Origin: the human T2T-CHM13v2.0 reference genome, Homo sapiens
Reading direction: 5' to 3' (one strand)
Assembly (NCBI RefSeq): GCF_009914755.1
Contig: NC_060928.1
Length of the DNA: 64,000 nucleotides
How positions within the stretch are numbered: the first letter of the stretch is position 1; every line of letters starts with the position of its first letter. A model generated the notes under the pieces. It was not told where the DNA came from. It searched no databases and was given only the letters and a program-made list of their open reading frames with translations. This document shows positions 31,785 through 63,333 of the stretch, piece by piece. A program made the translations under genes and the position numbers.

Positions 31785-32509
31785 TTTATTTCCTGATACA
31801 AAACAAAGACTTTTTTATGATGGTGTAGGGTGTCTGGACCCAGGGAAAGTAGGCTTTGTATGGTCTGGTGGCTGAAGAACTAGACGCACAAAGGGAGAAT
31901 CTTGGCCTTTGCAGAACAGCAGGTCTGGACAGCTTAGTTCACTGCACAGCCAACTCAGAAGCCCTTCCGGAGCAAATCTGGCCCAGAAGGCTGCACATAT
32001 TTTTGCCTGGATAGATTCTTCATGTTCAACAGGAGCCTCTGCAGCGATGATGGGGTCCTCCATATTGCTCACACAAAGCTACAGTATGGGACAGGAAATC
32101 TGGCTCTTTAACCCTCTGGCTGCTGCACATGACTATTTGGCTAGCAAAGCAGAAAAATGTCGACAGCCTAAGGTTTAAATGATTAGTAACAGGTTTTTGA
32201 GTGATTTTCCCAGAATGTGCTAGTATAAATAGAGGACTGTGAAACTGTGGTTTGTGGTATTTTTTTTCTTCCTTTTGATATTGTGGCTTGTTTGTTTCCA
32301 TTTCTTTTCATGACACATTCCTTTTTATGACTGTACACCCACGCCAAATATCCAAATGCAGGCTTGAAAGGGAAGGTGCTCACCTCAAAGCACTTCCTGA
32401 TTAGGAATCAGGTGTCTACATCCAGAATGCTGATAGGCTTTTTAACTCTCCAAAAATTGATCCATTGTGGTGAGTTATTTTGGCTTATACCCTAGATTTT
32501 GTTTATAGG
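31785..32509 (-). ncRNA. Candidate spliced exon pair (32509-32384; 32140 to polyA signal) of an unidentified transcript
   Basis: TACTAAT branch plus GTCTGTCTCTTCCAG acceptor; GAG|GTGAGC donor; TTTTTCTGCTTTGCTAG acceptor; AATAAA at 31785-31790. Confidence 0.45.
31815..32063 (-). CDS. Candidate 82-aa small ORF (MEDPIIAAEAPVEHEE...RHPTPS), no recognised family
   Basis: ATG in strong context (AAT-ATG-G), non-repeat and GC-richer than flanks, stop 25 nt before AATAAA; upstream out-of-frame ATGs are present. Confidence 0.2.
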   Translation of the reverse strand: MEDPIIAAEAPVEHEESIQAKICAAFWARFAPEGLLSWLCSELSCPDLLFCKGQDSPFVRLVLQPPDHTKPTFPGSRHPTPS

Positions 32510-33379
32510 CTGGAAGAGACAGACACGACTATTAGTACATTATTACTTACTGCAATATTTGAGAATTTTCTTTTTAATGAGTACATAGACCACTTATTAA
32601 CAATGTGATGCCTTACTTAAGAAGCAATACAGTGCTTTCTTTTTAAATTTTTAAATGTTTCTTTTCTATATTTACTATTATTATATTTTAAAAAACATGA
32701 AACTGACAAATAGATTCATATCCTGGGTGGTTTGATAAATGTTACTTATACATTGTAATAGAGAGATTAAAAATATGACATTTAATGAGTAGAAATGGCA
32801 CCAAATAATGCAAAGCTTTGAGCGTAGTTTATTGAGATAAGTCATATTATATCAACTTCAGCAAACACGGGTTTCTTAAAATGAATAATGACAATCTTCT
32901 GTTGGGAAAACCGTTCTGTTCAGTAACAAAGCACAGGTTTTGAAATCAAGAGCATTGTTTTGAAAATATTTGCAGGAGCCAGTCATTAGCTCCTATATGT
33001 GTTATGATATGGATACAGGGCATACCTTATGATTTTCTATGTCTCAGTATGCATTTTTTGGTTAAAATAAGATTTTCTACTTTTTAGTATGAAAGAAAAC
33101 TGAAGCATCCGAATATGGGAAACCTCCAGGACTTACATAAGTGAATGAAAGAAACCAGCAGGCCTCTGATTTGTATTTGTCACTATTCTTATCTAGTTGG
33201 CATTTTATGTTGGTAATCACCACAAGTTTTCTTGTAAAAGCCATGTAAAAAGTACCATATTTAAACAAGAAAGGACAGAAGAAAAAATAGTGCGTTTTCT
33301 TAGCACTTATACAGGTGCTGCTTTTCCCAACTTAGGAAAAAAAAAACCTCTTTCTAGCCTTTAGAAAGACTATGCATTT

Positions 33380-35240
33380 CACTGAACACAAAGCCCAATC
33401 TCCCACTGCCCCTTTACACATAATCTTCTTGAGAGACAAAATCAGTTCTCTGACTTCACTTTCTCACACGTATTCCATCTGTCTTGCACCCACCACTCTA
33501 CTGAAACGGTTCTTATTAAAGTCATTTATGACCTTCGGATTGCTAAATCAAACAGACATTTTGATATATCTTGTCTTATTTAATATGATCTCATCTCTTC
33601 CCTATGACATTCCATTATTCTTGATGTTTTCTTTACTTCTTTGGCTTCCTTCATACTACTCTTTGCTAGGCTTCTTAATTGATCTACTTTTCTTTGTGGG
33701 ATTCTTTCCCTCCATCTATCTTTCAATTTTCACGTTTCCTCTGATTAGTCTATCTTAATCTTTTTCTCTCCTCACTTACCACACCCTGACCTGAGCTATG
33801 ACACTCCTCCTCCCAATGTGCATTACAGCTCACTTGGTGAAAACCTCTGAGTTCGTTAAGATGCTTTTGGATACAAGTAACAGAAATAAAAACATGCATA
33901 AGGCATGAAACTCAAAATTTATTAGCTCACATATCTAAAACATTAAGGAGAAAGTTAACTAAAGGCTTGGTTGGATCCAGTAGTGCAAAAATATCAGCAG
34001 AACTGTTTCTTTTGTTGCTTTTTAACTTCTGTATTGTCTTCATCTGCAAACTTTACCTATACAGAAACAAAGACACCACCAGTTACTCTGGGCTTACTTA
34101 TTCTAACAGCTAGTAATCCCACTGGAAAAAACATGACCACCTCTCTTCCGGCATCCTCACCAGTACCTATGTTTGTTTTCTGATTGGCCTGACTTGATTC
34201 AAGTGCCCTCCACCATCAGAGGGAGAGGCATGGTGTTTTAATAGTCAAACCAGAATCAGTAACTCAGGAAAGGGGCATTTCACAAAAGAAAGTAAAGAGT
34301 AGATTTAAAACAAAACAACACATGAAAACCTCAGTTACAACTCTCAAATCTAGAACGTTTTCCTATACCCTTATCCTAGGACCCAGACAAATGTATTGTC
34401 TTCATTTCAAAATTACATCCCCAAAACTTGAATTAGAATTCCTTCTAGTCACACCCCTAAACATATTTATCTTCTTAAGCTTTTGGTAATGCTACCACTA
34501 CTTAAAATATCATCCAATGCAGAAACATAGAAGATATCTTAAACTTCTGCCTGACAATTCTATCTGCTAAATAAATACCAATGAAATACGTTACATTTGT
34601 TTTTTTCTCTCCAAATTTATTGTTACTACATTATTGCAGGTATATGTTATCTTTGAACTGAAGAATGTCCTAACTGGACTTATTTCCCTCGAATCTACTT
34701 TCCATATTGCTATTTCATTATCATTCTAATACATAAATATATTCATTTTACTTACCTGCTTTAAGCCAAATCACCCCCAGGATGAGTTATTCTCCAAACT
34801 CCTTCCCTGTCAATTCATGCTCTAAGTCAAAACTTAAGCCAAAGTAATCTAGAGTTTTCCAAATATGTCATTCTATTCTTGCTTGAGTGCCTTTGAACCC
34901 AGAATTCCTTTGTCCTAGAATAACCTTCCTCTCCTATCTTTTTAAATGCATTTATCTCATAGGATCTATTTTAGGTACCTTCAAGCTGAGTTAAAAACTC
35001 CCCCTTTTCAACCATGAACCTTGTATGCAATTTTTTTATTCCATTTATCAAAATGTATTTCTTTACATATTAACCTCTCTCTCTCAAGACTGAACTCCTG
35101 AGGGAGGAATATGTTTTATTAGACTTGTTAAGAGTTTATCTAATTCTATCCAATGACAGTCACCATGTCTGTAATATTGCATGAAAAAAAATTTACACTG
35201 AATAAATGCATGCAGGCATGAGTGAATGAATGAATACAAT
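33380..35240 (+). mobile_element. L2 LINE interrupted by an MLT1J/K-like LTR (~33850-34330, minus)
   Basis: CACCACTCTACTGAAAC...TTGCTAAATC L2 motifs; (TGAA)n tail at 35219-35233; TGATTGGCCTGACTTG MaLR motif in the middle. Confidence 0.65.
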
Positions 35241-36079
35241 AACAAACTTTGATAATCTGAAATTATGAAAACAATGATTACCACCCAAAAGGCAAAGAGG
35301 AACTTCATTTTTAGAAAACATTTAAAACAAAAGCTTTAATTTCTGACATTAATGATTTCAATAATATTCATGGTTTATAATCTACATGAATGTTTCAAGC
35401 ACTTCCACATTGAAAGCATCATTTGCCTTTGCATGATAGGCCAAAAGAAGTATCATTACCATCAGTACTACAGTGCTTATCAGAGGGAGAAGCTAAGGAG
35501 CAGATTGGTTGTGTGCCCATCCCAGGTTCATGAAGAGTATTGGCAGTAGCACTAGATCAAAAAAAATTTGTTTCCCTAGTCATTTAAAAGCATAAATTAG
35601 AACTATTCTCCAGAATCAATGGAGAAGGCCAGAGCATCCTATTTTAATCAATTATAAAAATTCTCCTTCTCCAATCAAAGAAAGGTATTAGTGAAATGAA
35701 TGAAAGTAATTAAATCTAATTTAGTCATGCAAATGAGTTTAATTAAAAGAAATCTACCCTTTAATAACTTCAGGGGAAAATGCAGTTCCTTATGGAGTTT
35801 GAAATTTAGTTAAGCTCACAAGACACAATAGCTGAACTGATGAGACCACACTGTTGTAATCTGCTTGTGTAAATATTGACACATGTAGCATTTATTTTGT
35901 CTCACAGTGATAATACTTGCTCTAGGCTTCTGATGAAATCTGGCATTTATAATTATTAAAAGATGCTTGTTAAAAATATTCTTATCCATCATGTTAATTC
36001 TATGAATGAGATCGCTAATACATTGACCTCCAAAATAAAATATTGCCTAAACCAGAGTTTAAGAAAATGAATTTAAATT

Positions 36080-62738: not shown

Positions 62739-62860
62739 ATTTAAAATTGGTGAGATGTTCCTTGGGCTGGTCAGTCTGAGGACCTGAGGTCATAGGTGGA
62801 TCTTTCTCACGGAGCAAAAACAGGAGTACAGGGGATTGAGCTCCCAAGGGAGGTCCCCTG

Positions 62861-62878
62861 ATCCGAGTCACGGCACCA
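62861..62878 (-). promoter_or_regulatory. Primer-binding site for tRNA-His
   Basis: Plus strand reads ATCCGAGTCACGGCACCA, the 3' 18 nt of tRNA-His(GUG) including CCA, 2 nt inside the 5' LTR boundary. Confidence 0.96.
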
Positions 62879-62880
62879 AA

Positions 62881-63333
62881 TTTCATGCGCATCCGTGTGA
62901 AGAGACCACCAAACAGGCTTTGTGTCAGCAACATGGCTGTTTATTTCACCTGGGTGCAGGCGGGCTGAGTCTGAAAAGAGAGTCAGTGAAGGGAGATAGG
63001 GGTGGGGCCGTTTTATAGGATTTGGGTAGGTAAAGGAAAATTACAGTCAAAGGGGGTTTGTTCTCTGGCAGGCAGGAGTGGGGGTCGCAAGATGCTCAGT
63101 GGGGGAGCTTTTTGAGCCAGGATGAGCTAGGAAAAGGACTTTCACAAGGTAATGTCATCACTTAAGGCAAGGACCAGTCATTTACACTTCTTTTGTGGTG
63201 GAATGTCATCAGTTAAGGTGGGGCAGGGCATATTCACTTCTTTTGTGATTCTTCAGTTACTTCAGGCCATCAGGGCATATACCGGCAAGTCACAGGGGAT
63301 GTGATGGCTTGGCTTGGGCTCAGAGGCCTGACT
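62881..63333 (-). mobile_element. HERV-H 5' LTR (LTR7, LTR7up-like)
   Basis: Adjacent to the PBS; TATAAAA (63011-63017), AATAAA (62940-62945), two ACAAAAGAAG motifs (63187-63196, 63237-63246) and CCCCACCC boxes, all read on minus. Confidence 0.95.

What the first reader, a model, noticed from the sequence alone, without database searches (positions are those of the whole stretch)
31785..63333. Candidate LTR7-driven chimeric transcript: HERV-H donor to downstream exons to small ORF
Seen, all on minus and in order: LTR7 promoter; donor CAG|GTAAGC (62736); polyA-dead 3' LTR; exon-like 38711-38605 (ATG|GTGAGT); exon 32509-32384 (TACTAAT branch, strong acceptor, GAG|GTGAGC); terminal exon from 32140 with AATAAA at 31785. 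Established: HERV-H loci produce such spliced pluripotency RNAs (LINC-ROR, ESRG). Inference: these parts form one transcript. The links are unproven and the locus may already be annotated.
Basis: inference. Interest (0 to 1): 0.78.

Follow-up and report, generated by a model that had tools for sequence, protein, structure and literature searches.

The report
Known stem-cell-active HERV-H provirus; downstream exons unproven
This is an already catalogued HERV-H endogenous retrovirus whose LTR7 promoter is active in human embryonic stem cells, and the proposed splicing into exons 24-31 kb downstream and the small ORF there remain untested and mostly look like chance.

Summary
The core is a 5.66 kb degenerate HERV-H provirus on the minus strand, 57675-63333. 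Its LTRs differ at 25 of 448 aligned bases.

This locus is already in print. Carter et al. 2022 list it as hg38 chr4:79553970-79559709, subfamily LTR7up1. They score it RNA=1 in H1 cells, with NANOG, KLF4, SOX2, FOXA1, H3K4me3 and H3K27ac all 1, but "Chimeric Transcript"=0.

The donor CAG|GTAAGC is a family feature: 29 of 30 copies have a GT donor there. The 3' LTR does lack AATAAA.

Of the downstream "exons", only 32509-32384 stands out. It is the only acceptor/donor pair of that strength in the window, against 0.03 expected. Exon 38711-38605 and the terminal exon are at chance level.

The 82-aa ORF has no family and no paralog. It is not kept intact in either of two related sequences, and it would sit behind 7-10 upstream ATGs.

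I could see no RNA junction data, so the chain is unproven and I judge it unlikely (about 15%).

The parts
62881..63333 (-). 5' LTR7 (subfamily LTR7up1 according to Carter et al. 2022). It holds TATAAAA at 63017-63011, AATAAA at 62945-62940, and two intact copies of CACAAAAGAAGTG, which contains the 8-bp AAAAGAAG motif, at 63235-63247 and 63185-63197.
62861..62878 (-). Primer-binding-site-like 18-mer two bases after the LTR. The assignment to tRNA-His is recalled and was not tested.
62734..62738 (-). HERV-H leader 5' splice donor CAG|GTAAGC, with the last exon base at 62736. It ranks 3rd of 3035 GT sites on the minus strand. The same site is a GT donor in 29 of 30 HERV-H copies examined.
58124..62880 (-). 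Degenerate HERV-H interior. Remnants are a gag zinc knuckle (60942-61304), protease (60651-60911) and a weak RT match (60132-60515). The longest stop-to-stop frame on minus is 143 aa. No env-like match was found among the frames scanned.
57675..58123 (-). 3' LTR7. It differs from the 5' LTR at 25 of 448 aligned bases. A 4-base gap (about 57732-57737) removes the AATAAA. One of the two CACAAAAGAAGTG copies is altered (57975-57987).
57521..57660 (-). Purine-rich (GGAA/GGGA)n simple repeat abutting the 3' LTR. The first AATAAA downstream on minus is at 55227, and the first ATTAAA at 54619.
38605..38711 (-). Candidate exon A. Weak acceptor (score 2.24, rank 923 of 3997) and good donor ATG|GTGAGT (10.46). 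Single copy in the genome. Chance-level as an exon.
32384..32537 (-). Candidate exon B (32509-32384) with TACTAAT at 32537-32531. The branch A is 22 nt before the AG. Acceptor 11.39 (rank 22 of 3997), donor GAG|GTGAGC 12.19 (rank 5 of 3035). Best exon-like pair in the window. Single copy.
31785..32140 (-). Candidate terminal exon. Moderate acceptor (6.86, rank 205 of 3997), AATAAA at 31790-31785. Single copy.
31815..32063 (-). 82-aa ATG ORF inside the candidate terminal exon. It has no Pfam family and no paralog, and it is not preserved in related sequences.

Best explanation
The feature is one of the roughly hundred HERV-H proviruses that are transcribed in human pluripotent cells. It is a 5.66 kb, gene-dead LTR7up1-HERVH element, antisense inside an intron of LINC00989.

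The published data show its 5' LTR bound by NANOG, KLF4, SOX2 and FOXA1 and carrying H3K4me3 and H3K27ac in ES cells. RNA starts in that LTR.

I infer that, as for most such loci, the main product is a provirus-centred non-coding RNA. Because the 3' LTR has lost its AATAAA, I further infer that this RNA ends at some internal or nearby flanking site. The first canonical signal downstream is 2.4 kb beyond the LTR.

The exon chain reaching 31785 is not the main product. Exon 38711-38605 and the 82-aa ORF are chance features. Exon 32509-32384 is a strikingly good exon-like site whose use is unknown.
For: Shown here:
- Provirus anatomy.
- Identity of the window's 5' LTR with the sequence printed for chr4:79559260-79559709. 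It shares that locus's private variants and differs at one base.
- Both copies of the motif containing AAAAGAAG are intact in the 5' LTR. Carter et al. report that this 8-bp motif is required for 7up promoter activity in iPSCs.
- The donor is a family-wide feature: 29 of 30 copies.
- The AATAAA is lost in the 3' LTR.
- There are 41 AATAAA and 29 ATTAAA on minus between 57700 and 31000, so unspliced read-through to 31785 is implausible.
- Chance-level statistics for exon A and the terminal exon.
- ORF negatives.

From papers:
- Carter et al. 2022 supplementary file 1 row: 7up1, RNA 1, Top 7th GRO 0, Chimeric Transcript 0, NANOG 1, KLF4 1, FOXA1 1, SOX2 1, ZNF534 1, KAP1 0, H3K4me3 1, H3K9me3 0, H3K27ac 1. 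The definitions are in the methods passage.
- Mob DNA 2025 (PMC12228294) supplementary table row: HERVH-int_898, hg19 chr4:80475124-80480863, minus, expression 50.09 in control. It is the 48th row of a table sorted by that value.

From the hub's table:
- RefSeq enhancer features overlie the LTR at 62253-64146.
- There is no minus-strand gene model in the window.
Against: - I saw no RNA reads, junctions, CAGE or 3'-end data. The claim that the main product is provirus-centred is inferred from what is reported for the family.
- The 'Chimeric Transcript'=0 flag comes from one list for one cell line (H1, Wang et al. 2014), whose criteria I did not see. It may have missed junctions to unannotated exons.
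- Loss of the 3' LTR AATAAA means the RNA must end somewhere unusual, which is the situation that favours capture of downstream exons.
- Exon 32509-32384 is far better than chance: 1 pair observed against 0.03 expected per 64 kb. It sits on the same strand, with a usable acceptor and AATAAA 244 nt further on.
- The expression values in the Mob DNA table are suspiciously uniform across loci (about 40-57). They may partly reflect shared multi-mapping reads; this is my inference.
Confidence: 0.7

Rival explanations
1. RNA started in the 5' LTR7 is spliced from the leader donor (62736) across the rest of the provirus and 24-30 kb of flank to exon 32509-32384, with or without 38711-38605. It then splices to the terminal exon at 32140 and is polyadenylated after 31785. 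This gives an unannotated LINC-ROR/ESRG-like lncRNA antisense to LINC00989.
For: - The promoter is active in ES cells.
- The donor is strong, ranking 3 of 3035.
- The 3' LTR has lost AATAAA.
- Exon 32509-32384 is the best exon-like pair in the window, on the right strand, with a well-placed TACTAAT.
- All three pieces are single copy.
- HERV-H loci are reported to donate TSS and donor to chimeric RNAs (review passages).
Against: - 'Chimeric Transcript'=0 for this locus.
- There is no minus-strand RefSeq model in the hub's table.
- 12 acceptors at least as good as that of exon B, 104 as good as the terminal one and 366 as good as that of exon A lie between each of them and the donor.
- Other exon-like pairs lie closer: 62359-62235 and 61156-60869 inside the provirus, and 56631-56370 about 1 kb past it.
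- The chain was picked by eye from many possible ones. On minus in 31000-57600 there are 15 pairs at exon A's thresholds and 43 terminal-exon-like sites.
Confidence: 0.15
2. Exon 32509-32384 and the terminal exon are real, but belong to a different, unannotated low-level transcript that starts nearer by, for example a tissue-restricted lncRNA. That transcript would have nothing to do with the HERV-H promoter.
For: - The exceptional splice-site pair.
- A usable acceptor plus AATAAA just downstream.
- The stretch is unique sequence.
Against: - There is no RefSeq model on this strand (hub's table).
- I identified no promoter-like feature. G+C is 32-40% throughout 32000-39000.
- In the one relative that spans the acceptor (P0003), the exonic part is no better preserved than the adjoining intronic part.
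Confidence: 0.1
3. The locus matters mainly as DNA. The LTR7 would act as a pluripotency enhancer and/or, through its transcription, as a chromatin-domain boundary, and the RNA's exact structure would be irrelevant. This does not exclude the other readings.
For: - RefSeq annotates enhancers at 62253-63151 and 63152-64146, over the LTR and leader (hub's table).
- H3K27ac and NANOG, KLF4 and SOX2 binding.
- The review states that about 50 highly transcribed HERVH loci form TAD boundaries and that HERVH loci act as enhancers.
Against: - No target gene is known.
- H3K4me1 is scored 0 for this locus.
- I saw no list of boundary-forming loci, so membership is untested.
Confidence: 0.3

Closest known systems
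The locus itself as catalogued: LTR7up1-HERVH at hg38 chr4:79553970-79559709, minus (Carter et al. 2022, eLife, PMC8912925); HERVH-int_898 at hg19 chr4:80475124-80480863 (Mob DNA 2025, PMC12228294)
   Same: Same strand and length class. The printed 5' LTR sequence shares the window's private variants. It is full length with two LTRs.
   Different: There is one base difference between the printed hg38 LTR and the T2T window, at 62926. The catalogues say nothing about the 3' LTR poly(A) signal or about downstream exons.
LINC-ROR and ESRG (HERV-H/LTR7-driven pluripotency lncRNAs)
   Same: An LTR7 promoter active in pluripotent cells, and a HERV-H leader donor available for splicing. The review names ESRG, lncROR and LINC00458 as HERVH-derived transcripts with roles in hPSC.
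   Different: Those RNAs have annotated, experimentally supported exon structures. Here no junction is documented, the locus is flagged non-chimeric, and RefSeq has no model. The exon structures of LINC-ROR and ESRG are recalled and were not examined here.
HERV-H chimeric transcripts with neighbouring genes
   Same: The proposed architecture is the one described in the review: HERVH as 5' sequence, spliced from its donor to a downstream acceptor on the same strand.
   Different: The described cases join to exon 2 of an annotated gene. Here the targets are unannotated, and two of the three are of chance quality.

Membership tests
HERV-H provirus (LTR7 - HERVH-int - LTR7) | Two LTRs in direct orientation flanking the interior | tested here: met
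   62881-63333 and 57675-58123, with 25 mismatches in 448 aligned bases plus one 4-base gap
HERV-H provirus (LTR7 - HERVH-int - LTR7) | Retroviral gene remnants in gag-pro-pol order | tested here: met
   zf-CCHC E 1.8e-7, RVP E 2.3e-6, RVT_1 E 0.0053 (below its cut-off), in that order on minus. No frame exceeds 143 aa
HERV-H provirus (LTR7 - HERVH-int - LTR7) | Leader similar to other family copies, including the 5' donor | tested here: met
   40 of 40 scored matches are 95-100% identical, out of 1045 first-look candidates. There is a GT donor in 29 of 30 loci
LTR7up1 subfamily (ES-cell-active LTR7) | Phylogenetic placement in 7up1 | not tested
   Taken from the authors' tables for this exact locus. 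I built no tree
LTR7up1 subfamily (ES-cell-active LTR7) | Presence of the 8-bp AAAAGAAG SOX2/3-type motif | tested here: met
   The motif is named in the paper. Two exact CACAAAAGAAGTG sites lie in the 5' LTR. I could not tell which of the two is the 'block 2b' insertion
LTR7up1 subfamily (ES-cell-active LTR7) | Transcribed in ES cells, with activator binding | not testable with these tools
   Published calls only: RNA 1, NANOG, KLF4 and SOX2 1, H3K4me3 and H3K27ac 1, GRO-seq septile 3 of 7
HERV-H-driven chimeric or spliced lncRNA (LINC-ROR/ESRG type) | Documented splice junction from the HERV-H donor to non-HERV exons | not testable with these tools
   No read-level data. The published flag for this locus is 'Chimeric Transcript' = 0. 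There were 0 hits in the held supplements of Torre et al. 2023
HERV-H-driven chimeric or spliced lncRNA (LINC-ROR/ESRG type) | Downstream exons with splice signals better than background | tested here: inconclusive
   Exon B yes (1 observed, 0.03 expected). Exon A and the terminal exon no
Small protein / micropeptide gene | ORF preserved in relatives | tested here: not met
   Of 2 related sequences found, P0002 diverges completely after residue about 54, and P0003 has V in place of the start M, is fused to another frame and has a gap
Small protein / micropeptide gene | Recognisable family or protein-like features | tested here: not met
   0 Pfam families at E<=1. Atlas recognition 1106 with best score 0.78. 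No paralog in the genome; the only other hit has E 5.5
Small protein / micropeptide gene | Favourable translation context | tested here: not met
   7 or 10 upstream ATGs in the proposed RNAs, the last opening a 34-codon ORF that overlaps the start. The TSS position was assumed

The most novel reading that the evidence does not exclude
Loss of the poly(A) signal in the 3' LTR has turned this ES-cell-active LTR7up1 provirus into the first exon of an unannotated, hominoid-specific spliced lncRNA. That RNA would run antisense through LINC00989, use the unusually strong exon 32509-32384, and end at 31785. The locus would then be a natural example of how decay of a retroviral terminator creates a new host transcript.
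Probability: 0.15. Interest if true: 0.45.

Novelty: already known. Interest (0 to 1): 0.25.

Why it matters
HERV-H loci are central to current work on human pluripotency, so which copies make spliced, stable RNAs is a real question. Even so, this would be one more member of a well-described class.

Three results from this check are useful. The locus is already catalogued as an active LTR7up1 element. Its 3' LTR has lost its poly(A) signal, so the real 3' end of its RNA is worth looking up. Of the proposed downstream exons, only 32509-32384 deserves a junction search.

Tried and rejected
- **LINC00989 with HERVH:** a literature search found 0 papers. The 31 papers on LINC00989 alone (30 listed) concern plus-strand expression in blood, platelets and cancer signatures, none on this provirus, judging from the listing only.
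- **Coordinate strings in main texts:** 5 papers, all irrelevant number matches.
- **Other name searches:** HERVH with GK2 gave 0 papers. lnc-GK2, linc-GK2, lnc-ANTXR2 and LOC107986294 gave 0 papers.
- **Kelley & Rinn 2012 supplements:** no chr4 hit for the hg19 coordinates and no linc-GK2, linc-ANTXR2, linc-NAA11, linc-PRDM8 or linc-FGF5 names. File 7 was cut when stored, so this is not evidence of absence.
- **Torre et al. 2023 embryo isoform supplements:** 0 hits in the 5 files held as text. The full isoform set may not be among them.
- **Babarinde et al. 2021 Table S3 (hPSC TE-containing transcripts):** the supplement store was closed, so I did not see it.
- **Earlier findings of this scan:** not open.
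- **Repeat content of 32600-39000:** the search returned only one 115-nt Alu-type repeat, because that repeat filled the scored list. It is uninformative for the rest.
- **Rfam scan of the window:** only an Alu/SRP match at 45900-46047.
- **Rejected: the ORF as a gene.** See the membership test.
- **Rejected: unspliced read-through to 31785.** 70 canonical signals lie in between.
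Full report
**What is in the sequence**

Read on the minus strand, the window holds a retroviral provirus from 63333 down to 57675.
- The 5' LTR (62881-63333) begins GTCAGGCCTCTGAGCCC. It carries TATAAAA at 63017-63011 and AATAAA at 62945-62940.
- Two bases after the LTR comes an 18-base primer-binding-site-like sequence (62878-62861).
- The leader ends in CAG|GTAAGC, with the last exon base at 62736.
- A direct-repeat search and an alignment place the 3' LTR at 57675-58123.
- The two LTRs differ at 25 of 448 aligned bases, 17 of them transitions, plus one 4-base gap. 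That corresponds to roughly 13-29 million years, depending on the rate assumed.
- Between the LTRs no stop-to-stop frame on minus exceeds 143 aa.
- Pfam finds a gag zinc knuckle (60942-61304), a retroviral protease (60651-60911) and a weak reverse-transcriptase remnant (60132-60515), in that order.

This is an ordinary, gene-dead HERV-H of the common short form.

**The locus is already in print**

Carter et al. 2022 (eLife, PMC8912925) list hg38 chr4:79553970-79559709, minus strand, as a full-length two-LTR element of subfamily LTR7up1 (supplement passages). The 5' LTR sequence they print for it carries the same private variants as the window. It differs at one base, window 62926, so it is the same locus.

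Their supplementary file 1 row reads as follows:

| Call | Value | Call | Value |
|---|---|---|---|
| RNA | 1 | ZNF534 | 1 |
| Top 7th GRO | 0 | ZNF90 | 0 |
| Chimeric Transcript | 0 | H3K4me1 | 0 |
| KAP1 | 0 | H3K4me3 | 1 |
| NANOG | 1 | H3K9me3 | 0 |
| OCT4 | 0 | H3K27ac | 1 |
| KLF4 | 1 | SOX2 | 1 |
| FOXA1 | 1 | | |

The methods passage defines "RNA" as fpkm>2 in H1 cells. It defines "chimeric" as membership of the chimeric HERVH list of Wang et al. 2014. I did not see the Wang paper itself.

The sequence label also says "GRO3of7". A second table (Mob DNA 2025, PMC12228294, supplementary file 1) lists the element in hg19 as HERVH-int_898. Its expression is 50.09 in control cells and 34.11 in the "T28KO" column, marked "No change". 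It is the 48th row of a table sorted by expression.

Carter et al. report that an 8-bp motif, AAAAGAAG, is required for 7up promoter activity in iPSCs. The 5' LTR here has two exact CACAAAAGAAGTG sites. The 3' LTR has one exact and one altered site. The hub's RefSeq table places two enhancer features over the LTR and leader.

**The donor**

The donor is strong, ranking 3 of 3035 GT sites on minus in my crude scoring. It is a property of the family, not of this copy. Of 30 HERV-H leaders fetched from the same genome, this one included:
- 24 have CAG|GTAAGC
- 3 have CAG|GTAAGT
- 1 has CGG|GTAAGC
- 1 has CAA|GTAAGC
- 1 has a GC donor

Loss of the LTR hexamer is not rare either. In the same 30 loci, 25 of the 5' LTRs keep AATAAA at that place and 5 do not. 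Possible anchor misses are counted among the 5.

**The downstream "exons"**

All three pieces are single copy in the genome. I scored splice sites with a simple position matrix whose frequencies I recalled from memory. The numbers serve for ranking only. As a control, the one annotated exon in the window (LINC00989, 17522-17639, plus strand) scores acceptor 13.93 and donor 5.07.

| Candidate | Acceptor score (rank of 3997) | Donor score (rank of 3035) | Against background |
|---|---|---|---|
| Exon B, 32509-32384 | 11.39 (22) | 12.19 (5) | Only pair at acceptor >=11 and donor >=12, 50-300 nt apart, on either strand; 0.03 expected |
| Exon A, 38711-38605 | 2.24 (923) | 10.46 (12) | 48 such pairs on minus, 42 on plus; 31 +/- 10 expected |
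| Terminal exon, from 32140 | 6.86 (205) | none | 43 of 71 comparable acceptors also have AATAAA downstream |

- Exon B has TACTAAT with its branch A 22 nt before the AG. The expectation of 0.03 per 64 kb comes from 30 first-order Markov sequences. It is genuinely unusual.
- For exon A, 366 acceptors at least as good lie between it and the donor. It is a chance-level feature.
- For the terminal exon, the 43 of 71 count is for minus 31000-57600 with AATAAA 100-1000 nt downstream.
- Competing exon-like pairs lie closer to the donor: 62359-62235 and 61156-60869 inside the provirus, and 56631-56370 about 1 kb beyond it.
- Unspliced read-through to 31785 is implausible. 41 AATAAA and 29 ATTAAA lie on minus between 57700 and 31000, the first at 55227 and 54619.

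**The small ORF**

The 82-aa ORF (32063-31815) is the shortest of 20 ATG-ORFs of at least 82 aa in the window.
- It matches no Pfam family at E<=1.
- It has no paralog in the genome. The only other hit has E 5.5.
- It scores as unrecognised in the protein atlas, with recognition 1106 and best hit 0.78.
- The large protein database returned 3 of 3 candidates: the identical sequence and two relatives.
- P0002 keeps the start but diverges completely after about residue 54.
- P0003 has valine in place of the start methionine, is fused to the frame that in human lies in the proposed intron, and has a gap.
- In P0003 the part that corresponds to the human intron is as well preserved as the part that corresponds to the exon. 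This fits neutral drift.
- In the proposed RNAs the ORF's ATG would be preceded by 7 upstream ATGs without exon A, or 10 with it. The last opens a 34-codon ORF overlapping the start. The TSS was assumed to lie about 30 nt after the TATA box.

**Verdict on mechanism**

Shown or published:
- An LTR7up1 promoter that is active and activator-bound in ES cells.
- A conserved leader donor.
- A 3' LTR without its AATAAA.

Inferred:
- The dominant RNA is provirus-centred and ends at an internal or near-flank site.

Untested:
- Whether any molecules splice to 32509-32384 and 32140.

Several things weigh against the full chain:
- the published non-chimeric flag
- the absence of a RefSeq model on this strand
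- the many nearer competing sites
- the chance quality of two of the three pieces

I put the full chain at about 15%. I put the reading that exon B and the terminal exon belong to some other transcript at about 10%. An enhancer or boundary role for the DNA is compatible with any of these.

**What I could not see**

- RNA-seq, CAGE, long-read or 3'-end data.
- GENCODE.
- Wang et al. 2014.
- The later part of Kelley & Rinn's file 7, which was cut when stored.
- Supplementary file 4 (pdf) of Carter et al.

Searches for the locus by name or number in main texts found nothing relevant. Beyond the two locus tables cited above, I found nothing in print about this locus's transcript structure. That statement rests on those searches only.

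Noticed in passing
window 20892-24946: An L1 element with an internal inversion. The endonuclease and the first part of RT are read on the plus strand (23302-24117 and 24298-24942). The rest of RT is a 548-aa open frame on the minus strand (21470-23116). The layout looks like a twin-priming inversion.
   Followed up: partly
window 56370-56631, minus strand: An exon-like pair (acceptor >=10, donor >=10) about 1 kb downstream of the 3' LTR. Its acceptor lies at the end of a sense Alu fragment.
   Followed up: no
window 62926: One base differs between this T2T window (G on minus) and the hg38 sequence of the same LTR as printed in Carter et al. 2022 supplementary file 6 (C).
   Followed up: no
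window 62253-62357: Four tandem copies of a 21-base unit inside the HERV-H leader/gag region, coinciding with the start of the RefSeq enhancer feature.
   Followed up: no
beyond the window end, from 65778 on plus (hub's table): The lncRNA LOC107986294 starts about 2.4 kb from the 5' LTR on the opposite strand. This divergent arrangement could reflect enhancer action of the LTR7.
   Followed up: no
window 57521-57660: A 140-base purine-rich (GGAA/GGGA)n simple repeat directly abuts the 3' LTR. The flank of the 5' LTR is also GA-rich, so the provirus seems to have inserted into a purine-rich tract.
   Followed up: no
window 45900-46047, minus strand: The only Rfam match in the window at gathering score is Metazoa_SRP (72.3 bits), which is an Alu-type sequence.
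   Followed up: no
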